13,987 nt of DNA from a virus (taxonomy: Duplodnaviria; Heunggongvirae; Uroviricota; Caudoviricetes): positions 1-13,987 of the IMG/VR virus record IMGVR_UViG_2548876869_000004; one strand, written 5' to 3'. Positions within the stretch are counted from its first letter, which is position 1. Every line of letters starts with the position of its first letter. The notes under the pieces were generated by a model. The model did not search any database. It was not told the origin of the DNA and saw only the letters and a program-made list of their open reading frames with translations. Of this stretch, positions 1 through 8,553 are shown in pieces. A program made the translations under genes and the position numbers.

Positions 1-45
1 TAACACGAAATCCTGCGAACTGGCAAAATGTAAGTGAATAAAAGT

Positions 46-85
46 AAAAACCCCGTTTGTTGGCAGCAAGCGGGGTTTTGTTTTT
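46..85 (+). terminator. Rho-independent terminator-like hairpin
   Basis: Arms aaaaccccg (47-55) and cggggtttt (71-79) are complementary around a 15-nt loop, followed by T-tract ttttgttttt (76-85). It sits just after an in-frame TAA at 1-3. The A-tract/T-tract symmetry could allow bidirectional function. Confidence 0.4.
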
Positions 86-150
86 ATGGCAGTAAGCTAT
101 GGGAGGCTGCCTTGATTGATTTTAGCAAACTGATTAGGGAGTTGCGACTC

Positions 151-246
151 ATGATTAGTCAATTACCAAACTGGAAATTTTTGCTGGTCTGGAGCATCCC
201 TTTTTTATGGGTAGTATCCCAGTTAATTGTGGCAATTAAGGGGTAG
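151..246 (+). CDS. Very short hydrophobic ORF (31 aa), putative single-TM peptide
   Basis: ATG at 151 preceded by aggga; product MISQLPNWKFLLVWSIPFLWVVSQLIVAIKG has one hydrophobic stretch with a C-terminal lysine. First of four tightly packed mini-ORFs. No recognisable homology. Confidence 0.2.
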   Translation: MISQLPNWKFLLVWSIPFLWVVSQLIVAIKG

Positions 247-248
247 CT

Positions 249-380
249 ATGTCAGACAAACTCATAACGCCGGCAAAGGTCCTGTGTGTGATTGTCGGTA
301 TTTCATTTTCACTAATGCTGGTTGCTCTTTTTCTGTCCCTCGCCTGGGTGATGTTGTCTTCGTCGGGGCTGCTGGGGTGA
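249..380 (+). CDS. Very short hydrophobic ORF (43 aa), putative membrane peptide
   Basis: ATG at 249 with aagggg 6 nt upstream; product MSDKLITPAKVLCVIVGISFSLMLVALFLSLAWVMLSSSGLLG. Its stop overlaps the next ORF's GTG as GTGA (377-380). Confidence 0.25.
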   Translation: MSDKLITPAKVLCVIVGISFSLMLVALFLSLAWVMLSSSGLLG

Positions 381-499
381 CAGTGACTGATGACATCAGC
401 AGAGCGCTGGCTTTTGCTATTAAGTGGGTGGCTGTTGGTATTGCTGTGTCTCCGATGCTGTATGGGCTGGCAAAACTGGTCATTGCGCTGAAATCGTGA
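377..499 (+). CDS. Very short hydrophobic ORF (about 40 aa), paralogue of the 511-597 ORF
   Basis: GTG at 377 (alternative GTG at 383); product ...TDDISRALAFAIKWVAVGIAVSPMLYGLAKLVIALKS. Both peptide and DNA resemble the next mini-ORF (RALAFAIKWVAVGIAV versus [16 protein letters not shown]). Confidence 0.25.
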   Translation: MTVTDDISRALAFAIKWVAVGIAVSPMLYGLAKLVIALKS

Positions 500-510
500 A
501 CTTTAAAAAG

Positions 511-597
511 ATGAGTGCTGAACTTATTCGGGCAATGGCATTTGCCATTCGTATTGTGGCCATTGCTGTTCTGGTCTGGACAATCCGTTGGTGGTGA
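511..597 (+). CDS. Very short hydrophobic ORF (28 aa), paralogue of the 377-499 ORF
   Basis: ATG at 511; product [28 protein letters not shown]. Stop TGA 595-597 lies 1 nt before the Rz ATG at 599. Confidence 0.2.
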
Positions 598-598
598 T

Positions 599-1066
599 AT
601 GAACCGTGTTCTGTGTGTGGTGATTATTGTCCTGCTGGTAGCCTGTGGTGTGCTTAGTCTGGGGCTGAATCATTACCGTGATAACGCCATTACCTACAAA
701 GCCCAGCGCGACAAAAATGTCAGAGAACTGAAGCTGGCGAACGCGGCAATTACTGACATGCAGATGCGTCAGCGTGATGTTGCTGCGCTCGATGCAAAAT
801 ACACGAAGGAGTTAGCTGATGCGAAAGCTGAAAATGATGCTCTTCGTCGCAAGCTTGATAATGGTGGCAGGGTGCTCGTCAAAGGAAAATGCCCTGTGCC
901 ATCCTCAGCCGAAACCTCCAGCGCCTCCGGCATGGGCAATGATGCCACCGTCGAACTCTCTCCAGTTGCTGGACGAAACGTTCTCGGTATCCGGGACGGA
1001 ATTATCCGCGACCAAACAGCACTGAGAACGCTTCAGGAATACATCAGGACGCAATGCCTTCGATGA
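599..1066 (+). CDS. Rz: Rz i-spanin (inner-membrane spanin subunit)
   Basis: From ATG 599: [83 protein letters not shown]... Long stretches match lambda Rz as I recall it ([58 protein letters not shown]). N-terminal TM helix plus coiled-coil periplasmic domain. The ORF-track start at 515 is an upstream in-frame extension. Confidence 0.9.
819..1025 (+). CDS. Rz1: Rz1 o-spanin (outer-membrane lipoprotein), embedded in Rz in the +1 frame
   Basis: [44 protein letters not shown]... has a lipobox (MVAG|C) and a proline-rich stretch, like lambda Rz1 (MLKLKMML...VVGC...PPPPPAW). It lies wholly inside Rz in another frame, the classic embedded spanin arrangement. Confidence 0.85.
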
Positions 1067-1239
1067 TAGCGATAATTTTACTCATCATCCTTCACATCTG
1101 GCTCTGTAGACAGGGTGGTGATCACTTCTGGAGTGAATCCAGATTTAACATCTCATTGCTGATGCTTGATATTGAGCATCTTGCGCGCGGTAAGGGGCTG
1201 CGTTGAGATAAGAGCCAGTCATCACAAACACCAGGATTT

Positions 1240-1266
1240 AGCCTCGCATTCGCGGGGCTTTTTATT
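1240..1266 (+). terminator. Rho-independent terminator-like hairpin downstream of Rz
   Basis: Stem agcctcgc (1240-1247) pairs with gcggggct (1252-1259), with one G-U wobble, around loop attc; followed by ctttttatt T-tract (to 1266). Confidence 0.45.
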
Positions 1267-1284
1267 GCAACAAAGGTAAAGACG

Positions 1285-1572
1285 ATGGATGAAGAATATC
1301 GTAAAGACCTGCAATTGTGGTTTGGCCTGACGCATGCGTCGTTCTGCGTGATGCCGAGAGTATTCATGGAGGCTATGCCGCAAGAATGGCAAGAGAAGAT
1401 GGCGCAGTTGCTTTTTGAGTATGGCGACACGATCAAAACGGATGTCTGCGGAGTTCACTGCTGTTTCGTTACTGCCAAAGACGGCAACAACCGCTTTATG
1501 AGGATGCCAGAAGATATTCTGAACTATCGTCATCCCCGGCGTGAGTTCATCGAATCATTTCTGAAGAAGTAG
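1285..1572 (+). CDS. Hypothetical small cysteine-containing protein (95 aa)
   Basis: ATG 1285; product MDEEYRKDLQLWFGLTHASFCVMPRVFMEAMPQEWQEKMAQLLFEYGDTIKTDVCGVHCCFVTAKDGNNRFMRMPEDILNYRHPRREFIESFLKK has a natural mixed-charge composition and a C-x2-H-C-C cluster. It occupies the lambda bor position but is not Bor-like and is on the opposite strand to lambda bor. I cannot assign a family from memory. Confidence 0.6.
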   Translation: MDEEYRKDLQLWFGLTHASFCVMPRVFMEAMPQEWQEKMAQLLFEYGDTIKTDVCGVHCCFVTAKDGNNRFMRMPEDILNYRHPRREFIESFLKK

Positions 1573-1629
1573 CCATTACAAAGTCTATCTGCGGGGGGCT
1601 TGATAAAGGTGCTTTCACCTCGCTTAGCA

Positions 1630-1638
1630 TGGTATGTT
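1630..1638 (+). promoter_or_regulatory. Possible extended -10 promoter element (TGgTATGTT)
   Basis: tggtatgtt at 1630-1638 resembles an extended -10 (TGnTATAAT) about 28 nt upstream of the ATG at 1666. No convincing -35. Weak, sequence-only call. Confidence 0.2.
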
Positions 1639-1665
1639 CTGACTACCAACTTTTTGGGAGGACAC

Positions 1666-1890
1666 ATGGAACTGATAAATGGACGGCCAGGCAGAGATTT
1701 TATAGTGGGAACATATACCTACTCAGAAATTAAAGATCTTAACTTCATGGCTAAGGAAGAGAAAAGAGCTCGTGAAGAGCTAAAGCATCGGGGTTACGAA
1801 TTGGCGTATATCAAGGCGGACTCTGAATGTAACGGGATGTTTGTCAGGGCGTACCGGGTCTATACTGACAAAGCGCCATCTAATGTCTAA
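1666..1890 (+). CDS. Hypothetical small protein (74 aa), AT-rich cargo gene
   Basis: ATG 1666 with GGAGG at 1657-1661; product MELINGRPGRDFIVGTYTYSEIKDLNFMAKEEKRAREELKHRGYELAYIKADSECNGMFVRAYRVYTDKAPSNV. Visibly lower GC than the structural genes. The TTG-initiated extension from 1600 in the ORF track is unlikely. Confidence 0.55.
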   Translation: MELINGRPGRDFIVGTYTYSEIKDLNFMAKEEKRAREELKHRGYELAYIKADSECNGMFVRAYRVYTDKAPSNV

Positions 1891-1933
1891 ATATACCTCG
1901 GGCGGTTTTTTACGTTCATTACCGTACGCAATT

Positions 1934-1996
1934 ACAGCAGGCATTCATTGAGTGCCTGTGATAATGATTTATCAACGTGCTTGCAAACGGTATTCT
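1934..1996 (+). promoter_or_regulatory. Putative promoter/operator region upstream of the 134-aa gene
   Basis: Inverted repeat cagcaggca (1934-1942) / tgcctgtg (1951-1958) with one bulge, then ttatca (1969-1974), a 16-nt spacer and tattct (1991-1996) as sigma70-like -35/-10, about 30 nt upstream of the GTG at 2026. Confidence 0.25.
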
Positions 1997-2025
1997 AGAC
2001 CTCCAATTATCCTAAGGAGGTTTTT

Positions 2026-2430
2026 GTGGTTAAAAATTTAGAATACATGAAGGGGATGCTTGAGGTATTTTTGAAAGCGAAAACTCCCTTTATATCTACA
2101 AAAGACTTAGCTAATGCGGGGTACGATATCTGCTCGAATGAAGGGATGTTTCATTATCTACTTCTTATTGAGCAAGGTTATATCAGTAATAAAGATCTAA
2201 TAACGGATGACATAACTAAACTGGGCTACATGCGCCATTGTGGCCATATGCTAGATATGGGTACCGACGTGCGACTATCTGCGCAGGGACAAGAATTCGC
2301 CCAGGCATTAAATGAACCTACGGTTTTTGAGAAATTAAAGTCAATGAGCGATGCCCCTTTGAGTACAATCAAAGATGTTGGGCTGGAGTTAACGAAGGCC
2401 TATTTAAAGAAGAAATTTGGCCTCGAGTAA
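2026..2430 (+). CDS. Hypothetical protein (134 aa), AT-rich cargo gene immediately upstream of cos
   Basis: GTG start 2026 with strong SD AAGGAGG (2014-2020); product MVKNLEYMKGMLEVFLKAKTPFISTKDLANAGYDICSNEGMFHYLLLIEQGYISNKD...KKKFGLE. Clearly AT-rich relative to flanking phage genes. Family unassigned; a small helical or winged-helix-type fold is speculation only. Confidence 0.65.
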   Translation: MVKNLEYMKGMLEVFLKAKTPFISTKDLANAGYDICSNEGMFHYLLLIEQGYISNKDLITDDITKLGYMRHCGHMLDMGTDVRLSAQGQEFAQALNEPTVFEKLKSMSDAPLSTIKDVGLELTKAYLKKKFGLE

Positions 2431-2612
2431 AATTTCTACCCTCACGAGTTAAGTTGTTTTGTGATGGTTATTCGCAATGAATATCTTTAGCCACTGGCAT
2501 TTGCTGGTGGTTTTTTTATGCGCATCCCTCGCGCACCACAAAGGGAGTCTTTCAGTAGTGATTCTGAATATCAGTGTGATAAACGTATTTGACAATCATT
2601 ATCATTTTTGGT

Positions 2613-2683
2613 GGGTCCTTTCCGGCGATCCGACAGGTTACGGGGCGGCGACCTCGCGGTTTTTCACTATTTATGAAAATTTT
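2613..2683 (+). other. cos: cos site: cosQ-proximal region, cosN (12-nt cohesive end GGGCGGCGACCT at 2643-2654) and start of cosB
   Basis: gggtcctttccggcgatccgacaggttacg|gggcggcgacct|cgcggtttttcactatttatgaaaatttt is near-identical to the phage lambda right-end/left-end junction as I recall it (...GGGTCCTTTCCGGTGATCCGACAGGTTACG + GGGCGGCGACCTCGCGGGTTTTCGCTATTTATGAAAATTTT). It sits about 180 bp upstream of Nu1, as in lambda. Confidence 0.85.
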
Positions 2684-2750
2684 TCAGGGAAAATCGTGTC
2701 GGTACTTCTCGAATATAACTTTTTGTTTTTTTTAATATTGCATCCGTAAA

Positions 2751-2805
2751 GGTCCGACATGAAAGTGTCCGAAAATGCCTTTTTCTGGCGTTTTCATGTC
2801 GGGCC
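2751..2805. promoter_or_regulatory. Inverted repeat within cosB, candidate terminase small-subunit binding sites
   Basis: Arm ggtccgacatgaaa (2751-2764) and arm tttcatgtcgggcc (2792-2805) are reverse complements at 13 of 14 positions, separated by 27 bp, just upstream of the Nu1 start at 2831. Lambda R2/R1 are similarly inverted. Confidence 0.4.
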
Positions 2806-2830
2806 TTGTATTTGATAATGGGTTGTTTTC

Positions 2831-3379
2831 ATGAAGGTTAATAAAAAGAGGCTTGCCGAAATTTTCAACGTGGACCCGCGGACGATTGAACGCTGGCAGT
2901 CTCAGGGACTCCCTTGCGCCTCCAAAGGTAGTAAGGGCATTGAATCTGTATTTGATACTGCCATGGTAATTCAGTGGTATGCGCAGAGGGAAACTGATAT
3001 CGAAAACGAAAAGCTCCGCAAAGAACTGGACGATTTGCGTGCGGCAGCGGAGTCAGATTTACAACCCGGCACCATTGACTATGAACGCTACCGGCTCACA
3101 AAAGCGCAGGCAGATGCGCAGGAACTGAAAAATGCCCGTGAAGACGGAGTAGTGCTGGAAACTGAACTGTTTACCTTCATTCTGCAACGTGTGGCACAGG
3201 AGATTTCGGGGATACTTGTGCGTGTGCCGTTGACATTACAGCGTAAATATCCGGACATTTCACCATCACACCTTGATGTGGTGAAAACTGAAATCGCGAA
3301 AGCCTCCAATGTTTCAGCTAAGGCCGGTGAAAACGTGGGCGGGTGGATCGATGATTTCAGACGCGCAGAAGGCAGCTAA
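2831..3379 (+). CDS. nu1: Terminase small subunit (gpNu1)
   Basis: [28 protein letters not shown]...[60 protein letters not shown] closely parallels lambda Nu1 (MEVNKKQLADIF...[48 protein letters not shown]). N-terminal winged HTH. Directly downstream of cos. Confidence 0.95.
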
Positions 3380-5279
3380 TGCAGCCGGTGCGATAGCAAC
3401 AGGGCTTTTATCTCTCATTATTCCTGTTCCACTGACGACAGTTCAGTGGGCCAATAAACATTATTACCTTCCTAAAGAGTCGTCTTATACCCCGGGGCGG
3501 TGGGAAACACTGCCGTTTCAGGTTGGCATCATGAACTGTATGGGCAACGATTTGATTCGCACGGTTAACCTGATTAAATCTGCCCGTGTTGGTTATACAA
3601 AGATGTTGCTGGGAGTGGAGGCTTATTTTATTGAGCATAAATCACGCAACAGCCTTCTTTTTCAGCCCACGGACTCAGCTGCTGAAGATTTTATGAAATC
3701 TCATGTTGAGCCAACGATAAGGGAGGTTCCTGCGTTGCTGGAGCTGGCTCCATGGTTCGGAAGAAAACACCGCGATAATACGCTCACCCTGAAGCGTTTT
3801 TCCTCCGGTGTGGGTTTCTGGTGTCTGGGGGGAGCGGCAGCAAAAAACTACCGTGAAAAATCCGTGGATGTGGTCTGTTATGACGAGCTTTCCTCGTTCG
3901 AACCGGATGTTGAAAAAGAGGGTTCGCCAACCCTGCTGGGGGATAAACGTATTGAGGGCTCTGTATGGCCCAAATCCATTCGCGGCTCGACGCCTAAAAT
4001 CAAAGGCTCCTGCCAGATCGAAAAAGCCGCTAACGAGTCGGCACACTTCATGCGTTTTTATGTGCCCTGTCCGCACTGTGGGGAGGAGCAGTATCTGAAA
4101 TTTGGCGATGAGTCCACGCCTTTTGGGCTTAAATGGGAGAAGGACAGCCCCGAAAGCGTTTTCTACCTCTGTGAGCATCATGGCTGCGTGATCCATCAGT
4201 CTGAACTGGACCAGAGTAACGGGCGGTGGATCTGTGAAAACACGGGCATGTGGACCCGTGACGGTCTGACGTTTTTCAGCGCTGCGGGTAATGAAATTCC
4301 GCCGCCGCGCTCCATCACTTTCCATATCTGGACGGCGTACAGTCCGTTCACCACCTGGGTACAGATTGTCTATGACTGGCTGGATGCACTGAAAGATCCC
4401 AACGGCCTGAAAACCTTTGTGAACACCACGCTGGGCGAGACCTGGGAAGAGGCTGTGGGCGAAAAACTCGATCACCAGATACTGATGGATAAGGTTGTGC
4501 GTTACACGGCGGCGGTGCCTGCCCGGGTGGTTTATCTGACGGCGGGCATTGACTCGCAGCGAAACCGTTTTGAGATGTATGTCTGGGGATGGGCTCCGGG
4601 AGAGGAAGCCTTTCTGGTGGATAAAATCATCATTATGGGGCGTCCCGATGAGGAAGAGACGCTGTTACGTGTGGATGCGGCGATCAACAAAAAATACCGC
4701 CATGCAGACGGAACCGAAATGACTATTTCCCGTGTCTGCTGGGACATCGGGGGGATCGATGGCGAAATCGTTTATCAGAGGTCAAAAAAACACGGTGTTT
4801 TCCGGGTGCTGCCGGTAAAAGGCGCATCTGTCTATGGCAAGCCGGTGATCACCATGCCAAAAACCCGCAATCAGCGGGGCGTGTATCTGTGTGAAGTGGG
4901 GACGGACACCGCAAAAGAAATTCTCTATGCCCGTATGAAAGCCGATCCCACGCCTGCGGATGAAGCCACGTCGTATGCCATCCGTTTTCCTGATGATCCG
5001 GAGATTTTTTCGCAGACAGAGGCGCAGCAACTGGTCGCGGAAGAGCTTGTGGAGAAGTGGGAAAAAGGAAAGATGCGTCTGCTGTGGGATAACAAAAAGC
5101 GGCGTAACGAAGCGCTGGACTGCCTGGTGTATGCCTACGCGGCATTACGTGTGTCCGTGCAACGCTGGCAGCTTGATCTGGCTGTACTGGCAAAATCCCG
5201 GGAAGAAGAGACGACCCGGCCAACCCTTAAAGAACTGGCAGCGAAGCTGTCCGGAGGAGTGAATGGTTACAGTCGCTGA
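3351..5279 (+). CDS. A: Terminase large subunit (gpA)
   Basis: From ATG 3351 (overlapping the Nu1 3' end as in lambda): MISDAQK...[25 protein letters not shown]...[22 protein letters not shown]...[14 protein letters not shown]...KRRNEALDC. Recognisable lambda gpA motifs throughout. The ORF-track start at 3309 is an upstream extension. Confidence 0.95.
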
Positions 5280-5469
5280 ACTGCAGGCGCTGCGTCAGGC
5301 GCGCCTTGATTTATTAACCGGTAAACGGGTGGTGTCTGTCCAGAAAGATGGTCGCAGAATTGAATATACGGCGGCTTCTCTGGATGAGCTTAACCGGGCG
5401 ATCAATGATGCGGAGTCGGTACTGGGGACAACCCGGCGTCGCCGTCGTCCGCTGGGAGTGAGGTTATGA
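5263..5469 (+). CDS. W: Head-tail joining / head completion protein gpW
   Basis: 68 aa; LLTGKRVVSVQKDGRRIEYTAASLDEL resembles lambda gpW ([27 protein letters not shown]). Start overlaps the A stop; stop overlaps the B start (ATGA). Confidence 0.9.
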   Translation: MVTVAELQALRQARLDLLTGKRVVSVQKDGRRIEYTAASLDELNRAINDAESVLGTTRRRRRPLGVRL

Positions 5470-7058
5470 AACGAACGCCTGTCCTGATTGATGTGAACGG
5501 CGTTCCGCTTCGTGAGAGTCTCAGCTACAACGGGGGCGGTGCAGGATTTGGCGGGCAAATGGCTGAGTGGTTGCCACCGGCGCAGAGTGCCGATGCGGCC
5601 CTGCTGCCCGCGTTGCGTCTGGGGAATGCCCGGGCAGATGATCTGGTGCGCAATAACGGAATAGCGGCTAATGCGGTGGCTCTGCATAAGGATCACATTG
5701 TCGGGCATATGTTTCTGATCAGCTACCGTCCGAACTGGCGCTGGCTGGGGATGCGGGAGACCGCAGCAAAAAGCTTTGTCGATGAGGTGGAGGCGGCCTG
5801 GTCGGAATACGCCGAAGGGATGTTTGGCGAGATCGACGTGGAAGGAAAACGCACGTTCACGGAATTTATCCGTGAAGGTGTGGGCGTTCATGCGTTTAAC
5901 GGCGAAATCTTTGTGCAGCCGGTCTGGGATACGGAAACCACGCAGTTATTCCGTACGCGTTTTAAAGCCGTGAGTCCGAAACGGGTGGACACGCCTGGAC
6001 ACGGTATGGGGAACCGTTTTCTGCGGGCCGGTGTGGAGGTCGATCGATATGGCCGTGCCGTCGCGTACCATATTTGTGAGGATGATTTTCCGTTCTCTGG
6101 TAGTGGACGATGGGAACGGATCCCGCGTGAACTTCCCACCGGGCGTCCGGCTATGCTGCATATTTTCGAGCCGGTGGAGGACGGGCAGACCCGTGGGGCT
6201 AATCAGTTTTACAGCGTCATGGAACGGCTGAAGATGCTCGATTCCCTGCAGGCAACACAGCTTCAGTCGGCCATAGTGAAGGCGATGTATGCAGCGACGA
6301 TTGAAAGTGAACTTGATACCGAAAAGGCCTTTGAATATATCGCCGGCGCGCCACAGGAGCAGAAGGATAATCCGCTTATTAATATTCTGGAGAAGTTCTC
6401 CAGCTGGTATGACACGAATCACGTGACGCTGGGCGGTGTCAAAATTCCGCACCTTTTCCCTGGTGATGATCTGAAACTGCAGACAGCGCAGGATTCAGAC
6501 AATGGATTTTCGGCGCTTGAACAGGCGCTGCTGCGGTATATCGCCGCCGGTCTTGGCGTTTCCTACGAACAGTTGTCCCGTGATTACTCGAAGGTCAGTT
6601 ACTCAAGTGCCCGCGCCTCCGCCAATGAGTCGTGGCGCTATTTTATGGGGCGGCGAAAATTTATTGCGGCCCGACTGGCCACGCAGATGTTTTCCTGCTG
6701 GCTGGAAGAGGCACTTCTTCGGGGGATTATTCGTCCGCCACGGGCACGTTTTGATTTTTATCAGGCGCGATCAGCCTGGTCACGGGCAGAGTGGATTGGT
6801 GCCGGAAGAATGGCCATTGACGGGCTCAAGGAAGTCCAGGAATCAGTGATGCGCATTGAGGCCGGACTGAGCACGTATGAGAAAGAGCTGGCGCTGATGG
6901 GCGAGGATTATCAGGACATTTTCCGCCAGCAGGTCAGGGAATCTGCAGAGCGGGAAAAAGCCGGACTCTCACGCCCGGTGTGGATAGCGCAGGCGTATCA
7001 GCAGCAGATAGCGGAGAGTCGCAGGCCGGAAGAGGAGACAACACCACGTGAGACGTAA
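5466..7058 (+). CDS. B: Portal protein (gpB)
   Basis: 530 aa with extended lambda gpB-like blocks: GNARADDLVRNNG, FEPVEDGQTRGANQFYSVMERLKMLDSLQATQLQSAIVKAMYAATIESELDT, LLRYIAAGLGVSYEQLSRDYS, WIGAGRMAIDGLKEVQESVMRIEAGLSTYEKE. Confidence 0.95.
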   Translation: MKRTPVLIDVNGVPLRESLSYNGGGAGFGGQMAEWLPPAQSADAALLPALRLGNARADDLVRNNGIAANAVALHKDHIVGHMFLISYRPNWRWLGMRETAAKSFVDEVEAAWSEYAEGMFGEIDVEGKRTFTEFIREGVGVHAFNGEIFVQPVWDTETTQLFRTRFKAVSPKRVDTPGHGMGNRFLRAGVEVDRYGRAVAYHICEDDFPFSGSGRWERIPRELPTGRPAMLHIFEPVEDGQTRGANQFYSVMERLKMLDSLQATQLQSAIVKAMYAATIESELDTEKAFEYIAGAPQEQKDNPLINILEKFSSWYDTNHVTLGGVKIPHLFPGDDLKLQTAQDSDNGFSALEQALLRYIAAGLGVSYEQLSRDYSKVSYSSARASANESWRYFMGRRKFIAARLATQMFSCWLEEALLRGIIRPPRARFDFYQARSAWSRAEWIGAGRMAIDGLKEVQESVMRIEAGLSTYEKELALMGEDYQDIFRQQVRESAEREKAGLSRPVWIAQAYQQQIAESRRPEEETTPRET

Positions 7059-8553
7059 TCTTTCACACATTATTGCCGCAGCATTCAATGAACCGCTGCT
7101 TCTGGAGCCCGCCTATGCGCGGGTTTTCTTTTGCGCGCTCGGGCGCGAGATGGGGGCAGCAAGTCTTTCGGTACCACAACAACAGGTACAGCTTGATGCT
7201 CCCGGAATGCTGGCTGAAACGGACGAGTACATGGCCGGAGGTAAACGACCGGCCCGTGTTTACCGGGTGGTGAACGGTATTGCGGTACTGCCGGTGACCG
7301 GCACGCTGGTGCACCGGCTGGGCGGTATGCGGCCATTTTCCGGAATGACAGGCTATGACGGCATTGTCGCCTGTCTTCAGCAGGCAATGGCAGATAGCCA
7401 GGTGCGGGGCGTACTGCTGGACATTGACAGTCCGGGCGGGCAGGCCGCCGGCGCGTTTGACTGCGCTGACATGATTTACCGCCTCCGTCAGCAGAAGCCG
7501 GTCTGGGCACTGTGCAATGACACGGCCTGTTCTGCAGCCATGCTGCTGGCGTCGGCCTGCTCCCGACGGCTGGTTACTCAGACATCCCGTATCGGCTCCA
7601 TTGGCGTGATGATGAGCCATGTCAGCTATGCCGGTCATCTGGCGCAGGCCGGGGTGGATATCACGCTGATTTATGCCGGGGCGCACAAGGTGGATGGCAA
7701 TCAGTTTGAAGCCTTACCGGCAGAGGTGCGTCAGGACATGCAGCAGCGGGTTGATGCGGCGCACCGGATGTTTGCCGAAAAAGTGGCGATGTATACGGGG
7801 CTGTCTGTGGAAGCTGTCACGGGGACAGAGGCTGCCGTTTTTGAAGGTCAGTCCGCTATTAAGGCCGGACTGGCGGATGAATTAATCAATGCGTCGGATG
7901 CCATCAGCGTGATGGCTGCGGCGCTGAACACTCATGATACAGGAGGCACTATGCCGCAATTAACTGCAACGGAAGCTGCCGCGCAGGAGAACCAGCGAGT
8001 GATGGGGATCCTGACGTGTCAGGAAGCGAAAGGACGTGAACAGCTTGCCACGATGCTGGCAGGACAACAGGGCATGAGCATTGAACAGGCCCGGGCGATT
8101 CTGGCCGCGGCGGCACCACAGCAGCCGGTGGCATCCGCGCAGAGTGAAGCCGATCGCATTATGGCGTGTGAAGAAGCGAAAGGTCGTGAACAACTGGCGG
8201 CAACGCTGGCGGCGATGCCGGAGATGACGGTGGAAAAAGCCCGCCCGATCTTGGCTGCCTCACCGCAGGCGAATGCCGGGCCCTCACTTCGTGATCAGAT
8301 CATGGCCCTGGATGAGGCAAAAGGGGCAGAAGCGCAGGCTGAAAAACTGGCGGCCTGCCCGGGAATGACCGTGGAGAACGCCCGGGCTGTGCTGGCTGCG
8401 GGATCAGGTAAGGCCGAACCGGTCTCTGCATCCACAACCGCCCTGTTTGAACATTTCATGGCGAATCATTCACCGGCAGCGGTGCGGGGTGGCGTGTCAC
8501 AGACGTCAGCAGACGGTGATGCGGACGTGAAAATGCTCATGGCCATGCCATGA
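7048..8553 (+). CDS. C: Head maturation protease / scaffold fusion (gpC-like, S49/ClpP-type) with Nu3-like C-terminal region
   Basis: GTG start 7048 overlapping the B stop; AAFNEPLLLEPAYARVFFCAL, VNGIAVLPVTG, MTGYDGIV, DSPGG.AAGAFDCADMI, KPVWAL, SRRLVTQTSRIGSIGVMMSH, ITLIYAGAHKVDGN, YTGLSV, GLADEL all parallel lambda gpC. The C-terminal part holds three tandem copies of a Nu3-like motif. Confidence 0.9.
   Translation: MRRNLSHIIAAAFNEPLLLEPAYARVFFCALGREMGAASLSVPQQQVQLDAPGMLAETDEYMAGGKRPARVYRVVNGIAVLPVTGTLVHRLGGMRPFSGMTGYDGIVACLQQAMADSQVRGVLLDIDSPGGQAAGAFDCADMIYRLRQQKPVWALCNDTACSAAMLLASACSRRLVTQTSRIGSIGVMMSHVSYAGHLAQAGVDITLIYAGAHKVDGNQFEALPAEVRQDMQQRVDAAHRMFAEKVAMYTGLSVEAVTGTEAAVFEGQSAIKAGLADELINASDAISVMAAALNTHDTGGTMPQLTATEAAAQENQRVMGILTCQEAKGREQLATMLAGQQGMSIEQARAILAAAAPQQPVASAQSEADRIMACEEAKGREQLAATLAAMPEMTVEKARPILAASPQANAGPSLRDQIMALDEAKGAEAQAEKLAACPGMTVENARAVLAAGSGKAEPVSASTTALFEHFMANHSPAAVRGGVSQTSADGDADVKMLMAMP
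7951..8553 (+). CDS. nu3: Putative Nu3-like scaffolding protein from an internal in-frame start within C
   Basis: In-frame ATG at 7951 preceded by AGGAGG (7941-7946); downstream ENQRVMGILTCQEAKGREQ matches the lambda Nu3 N-terminal region (AENSRIMGILNCEEAHGREEQ). A nested scaffold gene is established for lambda C/Nu3; here it is inferred from the RBS plus homology. Confidence 0.5.
   Translation: MPQLTATEAAAQENQRVMGILTCQEAKGREQLATMLAGQQGMSIEQARAILAAAAPQQPVASAQSEADRIMACEEAKGREQLAATLAAMPEMTVEKARPILAASPQANAGPSLRDQIMALDEAKGAEAQAEKLAACPGMTVENARAVLAAGSGKAEPVSASTTALFEHFMANHSPAAVRGGVSQTSADGDADVKMLMAMP
7996..8420 (+). repeat. Intragenic tandem triplication (about 141-159 nt units) encoding three Nu3-like scaffold repeats
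   Basis: Three successive units: RVMGILTCQEAKGREQLATMLAGQQGMSIEQARAILAAAAPQQ / RIMACEEAKGREQLAATLAAMPEMTVEKARPILAASPQAN / QIMALDEAKGAEAQAEKLAACPGMTVENARAVLAAGSGKA, starting at about 7996, 8155 and 8296. The DNA is diverged but clearly related (for example gaagcgaaagg(a/t)cgtgaaca). Confidence 0.6.

What the first reader, a model, noticed from the sequence alone, without database searches (positions are those of the whole stretch)
1600..2450. AT-rich two-gene insertion just upstream of cos: candidate undescribed accessory or defence module
Two small genes (1666-1890, 74 aa; 2026-2430, 134 aa) are clearly more AT-rich than the flanking Rz and Nu1-H genes, which suggests horizontal acquisition. 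Each has its own strong Shine-Dalgarno (GGAGG; AAGGAGG with GTG start), and the second follows an inverted repeat and a sigma70-like element, so it may be expressed from the prophage independently of late transcription. The Rz-to-cos interval is the lambda bor position, a known moron slot for lysogenic-conversion genes. I cannot place either protein in a family from memory; a toxin/immunity, exclusion or anti-defence pair is speculation.
Basis: partly seen in the sequence, partly recalled or inferred. Interest (0 to 1): 0.7.

Follow-up and report, generated by a model that had tools for sequence, protein, structure and literature searches.

The report
Two independent prophage accessory-gene cassettes
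The AT-rich stretch just before the DNA-packaging site of this E. coli prophage holds two real but unrelated accessory genes of unknown role (a near-orphan 74-aa protein and a winged-helix DNA-binding-type protein); they are not a functional pair, and each follows a copy of a conserved, apparently undescribed RNA hairpin.

Summary
ORF74 (1666-1890) and ORF134 (2026-2430) are genuine genes under purifying selection, have strong ribosome-binding sites, and are markedly AT-rich (43.6% and 40.0% GC against 53% for the window). They lie in the Rz-to-cos accessory slot of a lambdoid prophage with phage-21-type packaging, 100% identical over window 1000-2900 to E. coli O104:H4. The block 1573-2612 moves as a unit at 99% identity or more in 36 of 5426 complete E. 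coli genomes. More distant homologues of each gene always occur without the other, next to different neighbours, so a toxin/immunity or defence pair is unlikely. No anti-phage defence model matches. ORF134 folds with high confidence as a winged helix plus three C-terminal helices and is a sub-threshold relative of Pfam DUF2513. Its family recurs just after the lysis genes in many temperate phages. ORF74 is a near-orphan: 5 hits among 1.84 billion representative proteins and no fold match. This hairpin shows strong covariation, is absent from Rfam, and is present in phi80 and at least 120 viral contigs. Function remains untested, and overall this is ordinary moron biology.

The parts
1570..1612 (+). 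Hairpin element, copy 1 (CCATTACAAAGTCTATCTGCGGGGGGCTTGATAAAGG). It starts 1 nt after the TAG stop of the upstream ORF (1285-1572), ends about 56 nt before the ORF74 ATG, and marks the left mosaic boundary of the cassette.
   Evidence: Covariance-model hit of 46.6 bits, E 2.8e-8. The boundary of 99%-identical DNA shared with four other prophages lies at 1573. The same motif stands upstream of ORF74 homologues and of ORF134 homologues in other loci.
1630..1638 (+). Extended -10-like motif TGgTATGTT upstream of ORF74. It is a weak candidate promoter with no good -35.
   Evidence: Read from the sequence. The position is conserved as TGGTATGGT in L015 and TGGTAATGT in L011. The promoter scan did not call it.
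1666..1890 (+). ORF74: a 74-aa, near-neutral (pI 7.8), soluble small protein predicted as beta-beta-alpha-beta-beta; phrog_6100. It is a near-orphan and is not annotated by PGAP in any RefSeq genome carrying it.
   Evidence: - phrog_6100 matches at E 1e-55 over the full length.
- dN/dS is 0.04-0.19 and third-position changes dominate.
- Only 5 hits among 1.84e9 representative proteins.
- AlphaFold2 pLDDT is 78.
- The feature column reads 'none' in 36 genomes.
- The protein is deposited as hypothetical AFS57516.1 / A0A2H3LZG5.
1926..1970 (+). Hairpin element, copy 2 (AATTACAGCAGGCATTCATTGAGTGCCTGTGATAATG). It ends 59 nt before the ORF134 GTG.
   Evidence: Covariance-model hit of 51 bits, E 2.3e-9. 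Minimum free energy is -17.2 kcal/mol. It aligns with the element upstream of ORF134 homologues in Klebsiella, Citrobacter and Pectobacterium loci.
1968..1996 (+). Weak promoter-like pair TTTATC (1968-1973) - 17 nt - TATTCT (1991-1996), positionally equivalent to good sigma70 promoters upstream of ORF134 homologues.
   Evidence: Alignment A6. L030 has TTAGCA-17-TATAAT with TGn, L007 has TTAGCA-17-TACAAT, and L028 keeps TTTATC/TATTCT. The window version matches only 7 of 12 positions and is not called by the scan.
1997..2023 (+). SD-sequestering hairpin: AGACCTCC (1997-2004) pairs with GGAGGTTT (2016-2023), occluding the AAGGAGG ribosome-binding site of ORF134.
   Evidence: Seen in the RNA fold of 1885-2030 and in a local fold of -10.3 kcal/mol. 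It is kept through G-U pairs in the 82%-identical Klebsiella locus (read). It is not conserved in distant homologues.
2026..2430 (+). ORF134 (WP_000240372.1): a 134-aa winged-helix protein with three C-terminal helices; DUF2513-like; phrog_585.
   Evidence: - phrog_585 matches at E 3e-31.
- A profile search found 74 homologue clusters, several named DUF2513.
- 28 of 53 members hit PF10711 at E below 0.01, but all fall below the 29.6-bit cut-off.
- AlphaFold2 pLDDT is 95.2.
- dN/dS is 0.14 against the Klebsiella homologue.
- Invariant residues are H43, G67, R83, L84, G88, F91 and P111.
2489..2519 (+). Intrinsic-terminator-like hairpin plus T-run downstream of ORF134.
   Evidence: AGCCACTGGCATTTGCTGGTGGTT followed by TTTTTTT; 10 pairs.
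2613..2654 (+). cosQ-cosN of the phage-21 type. The cohesive-end sequence GGGCGGCGACCT is at 2643-2654. This is the right boundary of the accessory block.
   Evidence: Identity to phage 21 records (99-100%) begins at window 2613. Phage 21 cosQ is annotated 23-29 nt before the genome end. The sequence was read.
1285..1572 (+). Upstream neighbour ORF95 (WP_000343118.1). It matches the C-terminal half of phrog_3527, is not AT-rich (GC3 0.60), and is not part of the mobile block.
   Evidence: The shared cassette begins just after its stop codon.

Best explanation
Window 1573-2612 is a mosaic accessory ('moron'-type) segment in the lysis-to-cos slot of a lambdoid prophage. It holds two independent single-gene cassettes, not one two-gene system.

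Each cassette has the same layout: a conserved + strand RNA hairpin (CAUUACAr - variable GC-rich stem - yGAUAAUG), a short leader with a strong SD that is partly occluded by an anti-SD hairpin, and then the gene.

ORF134 is a DUF2513-like winged-helix protein. I infer that it binds nucleic acid, probably as a dimer through its C-terminal helices, using the recognition helix (residues 38-49, invariant His43) and the wing (invariant Arg83), and that it acts as a small regulator.

ORF74 is a lineage-restricted small alpha/beta protein. It most likely acts by binding another protein.

Both genes point the same way as the late operon. They should therefore be transcribed mainly by Q-antiterminated late transcription during lytic growth. 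ORF134 also has a weak promoter-like site and its own terminator, which would allow low expression from the prophage.

Shown: gene reality, composition, fold class, family spread, independence of the two genes, and the existence and covariation of the hairpin. Inferred: DNA binding, timing of expression, and any biological role.
For: - Real genes: dN/dS of 0.04-0.19 for ORF74 and 0.14 for ORF134; PHROG families match both.
- Mobile block: 1573-2683 is 99.2-99.8% identical in prophages that have different left flanks and lambda-type Nu1. Phage 21 identity starts at 2613. Both genes occur in the same 36 of 5426 complete E. coli genomes.
- Independence, ORF74 side: homologues at 59-83% identity are followed by unrelated genes.
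- Independence, ORF134 side: homologues at 29-82% identity are preceded by unrelated genes in Pectobacterium, Klebsiella, Citrobacter, Pantoea, Aeromonas and E. coli.
- Independence, cross-check: tblastn finds no locus with both genes outside the identical cassette.
- DUF2513 link for ORF134.
- ORF134 homologues are always co-oriented with, and just downstream of, the lysis genes. In Aeromonas one lies between TerS and TerL.
- Terminator after ORF134.
- Hairpin.
Against: - There are no expression data and no binding or phenotype data.
- ORF134 is mildly acidic (pI 5.9), and its recognition helix is rather hydrophobic, so nucleic-acid binding is not certain.
- All family members score below the Pfam DUF2513 cut-off, and DUF2513 itself has no known function.
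- The ORF74 model is only moderately confident (pLDDT 78, from 5 sequences).
- In E. coli the two genes are always found together (36 of 36 genomes). A recently evolved functional link within this one cassette therefore cannot be excluded.
Confidence: 0.55

Rival explanations
1. The two genes form a functional pair (toxin/antitoxin, defence plus self-immunity, or exclusion pair).
For: They are adjacent, co-oriented, and always together in the 36 E. coli genomes that carry them. The same slot in phi80 holds a defence/counter-defence pair, taiEcA/atiEcA.
Against: - Every homologue below about 99% identity occurs without the partner.
- A 135-nt spacer with its own hairpin element, leader and SD separates the genes, so they are not translationally coupled.
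- There are no PADLOC hits and no homology to phi80 genes; tblastn finds nothing in 50,697 phage records for ORF74 and only 2 records for ORF134.
- In CT282 an IS100 sits at about window 2025-2030 (the junction inferred from the blastn coordinates). It separates ORF134 from its leader while ORF74 stays intact, without evident loss of the prophage.
Confidence: 0.07
2. One or both genes are single-gene, prophage-expressed anti-phage or lysogenic-conversion functions (true morons like HK97 gp15, lambda bor or phi80 Tai), expressed from their own promoters in the lysogen.
For: - The location is an established moron and defence slot.
- The genes are AT-rich and horizontally mobile.
- ORF134 has a downstream intrinsic terminator.
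- Promoter-like hexamers are positionally conserved upstream of ORF134 and are strong in the Citrobacter and Pectobacterium homologues.
- An extended -10-like motif lies upstream of ORF74.
Against: - Known lysogen-expressed genes of this slot (bor, taiEcA) are transcribed against the late operon. Both ORFs here run with it.
- The window's promoter-like sites are weak and are not called by the scan.
- Both SDs are partly sequestered.
- There is no signal peptide or membrane segment to suggest surface exclusion; the proteins are hydrophilic (GRAVY -0.73 and -0.17).
- PADLOC finds nothing.
Confidence: 0.18
3. They are late-expressed counter-defence or self-immunity genes (Ati-like or anti-defence) that help the induced phage escape host or co-resident prophage immunity.
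For: - They are co-oriented with the Q-dependent late operon, like atiEcA in phi80.
- They are small, fast-evolving in distribution, AT-rich, and found in a hypervariable slot.
- Small orphan proteins such as ORF74 are typical of anti-defence proteins (general knowledge, not tested here).
Against: There is no homology or fold similarity to any characterised inhibitor. A winged-helix fold is not typical of known anti-defence proteins. No partner defence gene is visible in the window.
Confidence: 0.15
4. ORF134 is a packaging-associated DNA-binding accessory factor (a helper for cos/pac recognition, or a TerS-like decoy).
For: - The family is consistently placed just upstream of packaging genes, and between TerS and TerL in Aeromonas prophages.
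- A winged helix followed by helices resembles the general layout of small terminase subunits. This is a resemblance from memory, not a test.
- In the window the gene lies about 180 nt from cosQ.
Against: - It occurs with at least five unrelated terminase and portal types: Nu1/GpA, DUF1441/GpA, Terminase_2, Terminase_4/TerL and P22-type portal. Co-adaptation with any one packaging machine is therefore unlikely.
- Most lambdoid phages lack it, including lambda and phage 21.
Confidence: 0.05

Closest known systems
Pfam DUF2513 (PF10711), an uncharacterised winged-helix family of phages and prophages
   Same: Sub-threshold matches cover the whole 100-position profile in 28 of 53 family members. 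NCBI names several 45-59%-identical homologues 'DUF2513 domain-containing protein'. The fold is winged helix.
   Different: The window protein itself gives no hit, even at E below 1. The best member scores 26.7 bits against a cut-off of 29.6. It has an extra C-terminal three-helix extension. DUF2513 has no known function, so membership would not explain the role.
MarR/PadR/TubR-type winged-helix DNA-binding proteins
   Different: Sequence identity is 8-20%. The C-terminal helices are not matched. There is no ligand-binding or dimerisation architecture of the MarR type. DNA binding has not been tested.
phi80 taiEcA/atiEcA locus (He et al. 2024, PMC11364771): defence and counter-defence genes upstream of the packaging module
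   Same: It occupies the same genomic slot in a lambdoid phage. A small late-operon-oriented gene (ati) lies next to accessory genes. phi80 carries one copy of the same hairpin element directly after rha, facing the minus-strand gene at 44365-44979, which I take to be tai.
   Different: There is no sequence similarity. Tai is about 26 kDa and is transcribed against the late operon. Here both genes run with the late operon, and they are not a conserved pair.
Classical morons (lambda bor; HK97/HK022 morons as defined by Juhala et al. 2000, from my own knowledge)
   Same: It is an extra gene of deviant base composition between essential modules. ORF134 has a terminator downstream and a candidate promoter upstream.
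   Different: The promoter evidence is weak. The cassettes are delimited by a conserved structured hairpin rather than by a simple promoter/terminator pair.
Intercistronic processing or stabilising hairpins (T7 RNase III sites, REP elements) and integron attC sites, as analogues for the hairpin element
   Same: The element has conserved outer arms with a variable, covarying inner stem. It sits between genes, often directly after a stop codon, and occurs at module junctions.
   Different: The helix is shorter (about 16 bp with a 2x2 internal loop) than typical RNase III substrates. It has no U-tract. It has no associated recombinase. It does not match any Rfam family. Function is untested.

Membership tests
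Pfam DUF2513 (PF10711) | Score at or above the curated gathering threshold (29.6 bits) against the family HMM | tested here: not met
   The window protein gives no hit at E of 1 or below. Homologues score 16-26.7 bits, all below 29.6. 28 of 53 members match at E below 0.01 over profile positions 1-97. It is therefore a sister or outlier branch, not a curated member.
Pfam DUF2513 (PF10711) | Winged-helix fold of about 100 residues | tested here: met
Moron (Juhala et al. 2000 definition: extra gene with its own promoter and terminator between conserved genes) | Present in some relatives and absent from others, at a fixed position between conserved modules | tested here: met
   The cassette is in 36 of 5426 E. 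coli genomes, between varying lysis-side flanks and cos. It is absent from lambda and phage 21.
Moron (Juhala et al. 2000 definition) | Factor-independent terminator downstream | tested here: met
   For ORF134: a hairpin at 2489-2512 plus 7 T. For ORF74: only the conserved hairpin without a U-tract (1926-1970).
Moron (Juhala et al. 2000 definition) | Own sigma70 promoter giving expression from the repressed prophage | tested here: inconclusive
   The scan calls no + strand site. Weak, positionally conserved hexamers lie at 1968-1996, and an extended -10-like motif lies at 1630-1638. Expression cannot be measured with these tools.
Known anti-phage defence systems (PADLOC-DB v2) | Match of any component to a defence-system HMM | tested here: not met
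   There are no hits for ORF74, ORF134 or ORF95 at E of 1 or below.
Toxin-antitoxin or defence-immunity gene pair | Conserved co-occurrence of the two genes across divergent homologues | tested here: not met
   No locus outside the 99%-or-more identical cassette carries both genes.
Toxin-antitoxin or defence-immunity gene pair | Toxicity of one gene neutralised by the other | not testable with these tools
   This needs cloning and expression.
Tai/Ati system of phi80 | Sequence homology to TaiEcA or AtiEcA | tested here: not met
   tblastn of ORF74 against 50,697 phage records (phi80 is in this collection) gives no match. ORF134 matches only a Yersinia phage and a Klebsiella phage.
Rfam RNA families (for the hairpin element) | Match to any curated covariance model | tested here: not met
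   Across window 1000-3000 only two chance-level hits appear, elsewhere in the region, at E 0.3.
Intrinsic (Rho-independent) terminator (for the hairpin element) | GC-rich hairpin followed directly by a U-tract | tested here: not met
   The inner stem is followed by UGAUAAUGG. The terminator scan does not call either copy.

The most novel reading that the evidence does not exclude
Two readings remain open.

First, the conserved hairpin (CAUUACAr-stem-yGAUAAUG) may be a dedicated punctuation signal for accessory-gene cassettes in the late operons of enterobacterial temperate phages. It could be an RNA processing or stabilising site, and it could also serve as the recombination junction through which single-gene cassettes such as ORF74 and ORF134 are shuffled between phages. 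That would resemble, in outcome, integron attC sites.

Second, ORF74 and/or the DUF2513-like ORF134 may turn out to be new late-expressed counter-defence or inter-phage competition factors.
Probability: 0.15. Interest if true: 0.65.

Novelty: new member of a known kind. Interest (0 to 1): 0.33.

Why it matters
As a candidate defence module, this finding loses most of its appeal. It is two unrelated hypothetical genes of the kind that fill the hypervariable lysis-to-packaging slot of lambdoid prophages. One belongs to the neighbourhood of an already catalogued domain of unknown function.

Three things are still useful:
- ORF74 is a genuine, selected gene that RefSeq/PGAP misses in all 36 complete genomes carrying it, including the O104:H4 outbreak strains.
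- The DUF2513-like family has a strikingly constant position after the spanin genes across phages with unrelated packaging machines. That makes it a tractable target for a function screen.
- The conserved hairpin that precedes each cassette is widespread, shows strong covariation, is strand-specific, and appears to be undescribed. If it controls processing or exchange of accessory genes, it would help explain how moron cassettes are organised and moved.

Tried and rejected
- **Family scans.** Pfam, NCBIfam and PADLOC scans of the three small proteins gave nothing significant.
- **Solved structures by sequence.** A profile search of the PDB gave nothing. The IcmE and GyrA hits are spurious.
- **A Citrobacter 74-aa gene upstream of an ORF134 homologue.** It looked like a conserved partner, but it is unrelated to ORF74.
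It matches 8 of 12 positions and would start transcription within the SD. Rejected.
- **The hairpin as a classical terminator.** Rejected because it has no U-tract.
- **The hairpin's GATAAT as a -10 box.** Rejected because no -35 lies at a workable spacing.
- **The hairpin as an operator for ORF134.** Rejected because it is common in loci that lack ORF134.
- **The SD-sequestering hairpin as a family-wide feature.** It is not conserved in distant homologues.
- **Literature searches.** Searches for DUF2513, PF10711, the PHROG ids, the protein accessions, the locus tags and the hairpin sequence found nothing relevant.
Full report
**Where the window comes from**

Window 1000-2900 is 100% identical to a lambdoid prophage of E. 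coli O104:H4 and relatives. In NC_018658 the neighbourhood reads, in order:
- holin, lysozyme, Rz;
- three hypothetical proteins;
- terminase small subunit, terminase large subunit, portal, S49 protease, decoration protein.

From window 2613 onward the sequence is 99-100% identical to phage 21 cos and gene 1. The cohesive-end sequence GGGCGGCGACCT lies at 2643-2654. Rz (Pfam Phage_lysis) and Nu1 (Pfam Phage_Nu1) are confirmed.

**Checking the observation**

- *ORFs.* Both ORFs are present at the stated coordinates.
- *GC content*:

| Region | GC |
|---|---|
| ORF74 | 43.6% |
| ORF134 | 40.0% |
| Block 1573-2612 | 41.2% |
| Rz | 51.4% |
| Nu1 | 49.5% |
| TerL | 52.6% |
| Window 5280 to the end | 56% |

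  No equally long window outside the region is as AT-rich as ORF134 or the block.
- *AT-richness as a family trait.* ORF134 homologues are 38-41% GC even in Aeromonas and Pantoea prophages of 50-54% GC. ORF74 homologues are 39-44% GC.
- *Coding status.* Both genes are under purifying selection: dN/dS is 0.04-0.19 for ORF74 and 0.14 for ORF134. This matters for ORF74, because PGAP annotates nothing there in any of the 36 RefSeq genomes. The original GenBank records and UniProt do list it as hypothetical.
- *Inverted repeat.* It is real.
- *Promoter.* The sigma70-like element is not supported at the scan threshold.
- *Terminator.* A good intrinsic terminator follows ORF134 at 2489-2512.
The second is not AT-rich.

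**A mobile block**

Megablast finds each half of the block in the same 36 of 5426 complete E. coli genomes, always at 99% identity or more. About ten of these are not O104:H4. Their left flanks differ (KilA-N plus an 89-aa gene, or Rz plus a 50-aa ORF), and their small terminase is lambda-type rather than 21-type.

The shared DNA runs exactly from window 1573 to 2683. That is from 1 nt after the stop codon of ORF95, through cosN, into cosB. Relative to phage 21, the unique part ends at cosQ (2612). In strain CT282 an IS100 has inserted at about 2025-2030, just before the ORF134 start codon.

**Not a pair**

The word-indexed search found few relatives: 12 clusters for ORF134 and 5 for ORF74. 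I looked at the genomic context of the divergent ones.

ORF74 homologues (59-83% identity):
- They lie just after the spanin genes and before the terminase.
- They are followed by a 65-aa gene and DUF6694, or by DUF6953/DUF2158 on the other strand, or by DUF2560.

ORF134 homologues (29-82% identity):
- They lie just after the lysis genes in Pectobacterium, Klebsiella, Citrobacter, Pantoea, E. coli and Aeromonas prophages.
- They are preceded by unrelated small genes or by none.

A tblastn of both proteins against all fetched loci found no locus with both genes, apart from the nearly identical cassette. A 74-aa gene upstream of the Citrobacter homologue is a coincidence of length and is unrelated. 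Conserved co-occurrence, the defining property of toxin-antitoxin or defence-immunity pairs, is therefore not met. PADLOC gives no hit.

**What ORF134 is**

A profile of the first hits retrieved 74 clusters. Several are named 'DUF2513 domain-containing protein', and three carry a precomputed PF10711 hit. Scanning 53 members individually, 28 hit PF10711 at E below 0.01 over nearly the whole profile. None reaches the 29.6-bit cut-off (best 26.7), and the window protein itself gives no hit. I therefore call it DUF2513-like, not a curated member.

The family sits next to at least five unrelated packaging systems. In Aeromonas it lies between a phrog_370 small terminase and the large terminase. This argues for a generic insertion hot spot rather than a packaging role.

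**What ORF74 is**

ORF74 matches phrog_6100 over its full length. Otherwise it is nearly an orphan. An exhaustive HMMER search of 1.84 billion representative proteins gave five hits, two of them fragments and one a repeat protein. The model (pLDDT 78) is a beta-beta-alpha-beta-beta domain. It has no convincing structural neighbour in the PDB or among viral models.

**The hairpin element**

A second copy lies at 1570-1612.

*Structure.*
- The consensus is CAUUACAr, a 9-10-bp GC-rich stem whose sequence varies, a 3-8-nt loop, then yGAUAAUG.
- The conserved ends form an outer stem across a 2x2 internal loop.

*Covariation.*
- On 16 hand-collected copies, RNAalifold predicts 16 pairs, 9 of them with compensatory changes. 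92% of cells are paired, against 33-47% when the partner columns are slid.
- On 49 distinct sequences from the viral-contig scan, 12 of 16 pairs show changes on both sides and 96% of cells are paired. No shuffle out of 500 reached any of the measures.
- Caveats on that last result: the alignment was fitted to the model, and the search pattern fixed the outer arms.

*Distribution.*
- In 239 kb of oriented loci, a covariance model finds strong copies only on the late-gene strand and only in the lysis-to-packaging region.
- phi80 has one copy, 3 nt after rha. Lambda and phage 21 have none.
About 70 of the 80 stretches fetched were confirmed at more than 37 bits.

*Strand.* U-G pairs are frequent; at one position they are the commonest pair, in 33 of 49 sequences. 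Reverse-strand scores drop from about 58 to 31 bits. Both facts point to an RNA, or top-strand, structure.

*Position.*
- In 127 distinct contexts, 54% of copies begin within 7 nt of the stop codon of an upstream same-strand ORF.
- The copies follow at least 18 unrelated ORF families and precede at least 38.
- The left boundary of the mobile block coincides with the first base of copy 1.

*What it is not.* It has no U-tract, so it is not a classical terminator. It matches nothing in Rfam. I found no mention of its sequence in the literature library.

*My leading reading (inference only).* It is an intercistronic processing or stabilising hairpin whose conserved arms also serve as recombination junctions between cassettes.

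**Expression**

Both genes run with the late operon. From established lambda biology, Q-modified RNA polymerase reads through terminators from pR' across cos, so both genes should be made late in lytic growth.

The phi80 study shows the contrast in this very slot. The defence gene taiEcA is transcribed against the late operon and is made in the lysogen. The counter-defence gene atiEcA lies in the Q-dependent operon. By that analogy ORF74 and ORF134 look more like late accessory genes than lysogen-expressed defences.

ORF134 nevertheless has a terminator and positionally conserved promoter-like hexamers. These are strong in the Citrobacter and Pectobacterium homologues and weak here. Both leaders can sequester their SD. 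The hairpin in front of ORF134 is kept through G-U pairs in the Klebsiella locus but not in distant homologues.

**Verdict**

- The moron-slot and horizontal-acquisition parts of the interpretation are supported.
- The idea of a functional pair or defence module is not supported.
- The best-supported description is two independent accessory cassettes: a near-orphan small protein and a DUF2513-like winged-helix protein. Each is delimited by a conserved, apparently undescribed hairpin.
- Function is untested. I put 0.55 on the stated explanation, with lysogen-expressed single-gene defence (0.18) and late counter-defence (0.15) as the main rivals.
- Novelty: a new member of a known kind. Interest is modest at 0.33, most of it owed to the hairpin element.

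Noticed in passing
window 1570-1612 and 1926-1970; also L003 2561-2604, 2756-2800, 2981-3023, 3337-3381; phi80 (L036) 4297-4341; at least 120 IMG/VR stretches (L039-L118): A conserved, strand-specific hairpin (CAUUACAr - covarying GC-rich stem - yGAUAAUG) punctuates the accessory genes between the lysis and packaging modules of enterobacterial temperate phages. It often starts 1-2 nt after a stop codon and coincides with mosaic junctions. It is not in Rfam, has no U-tract, and its function is unknown.
   Followed up: yes
window 1666-1890: ORF74 is a genuine, selected gene (dN/dS 0.04-0.19; phrog_6100). It is left unannotated by PGAP in all 36 complete RefSeq E. coli genomes that carry it, including the O104:H4 outbreak strains.
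   Followed up: yes
window 1997-2023 (ORF134 leader); window 1640-1661 and L011 about 5975-5995 (ORF74 leaders): Anti-SD/SD hairpins (ACCTCC...GGAGG) can occlude the strong ribosome-binding sites of both genes. The one before ORF134 is kept through G-U pairs in the 82%-identical Klebsiella locus but not in distant homologues. It could be translational control or a thermosensor.
   Followed up: partly
L006 (E. coli CT282) 5007-6808, equivalent to window about 2025-2030: An IS100 (istA/istB) is inserted immediately upstream of the ORF134 start codon. This separates the gene from its SD and leader and acts as a natural knock-down of ORF134 in an otherwise intact late region. The insertion point is inferred from blastn coordinates.
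   Followed up: partly
window 1285-1572 and 1054-1206: Two further small ORFs lie between Rz and the AT-rich block. ORF95 matches only the C-terminal half of phrog_3527 (233 aa); in related prophages a KilA-N gene plus an 89-aa gene occupy this place. ORF50 is phrog_11822. A terminator-like hairpin lies at 1240-1259 between them.
   Followed up: partly
L019-L021 (Aeromonas prophages) 4098-7165: An ORF134 homologue (50% identity) is inserted between the small terminase (phrog_370) and the large terminase genes, an unusual place for an accessory gene.
   Followed up: partly
window 1-4000 versus L001 (O104:H4 2011C-3493): Window 1-4000 is only 98.65% identical to the O104:H4 prophage, although 1000-2900 is 100% identical. 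The window therefore probably comes from a related but different prophage or strain, with its differences outside the accessory block.
   Followed up: no
window 2749-2807: A 27-nt imperfect inverted repeat (81% complementary) lies between cosN and the Nu1-like gene, within the phage-21-type cosB region. It presumably belongs to the known terminase/IHF binding architecture.
   Followed up: no
L025-L027 4088-5441 (metagenomic, non-prophage context): The most distant ORF134 relative (29% identity) sits next to a DUF2971 gene, near an integrase fragment and an HsdR-N gene. This is a chromosomal island rather than a phage late region.
   Followed up: no
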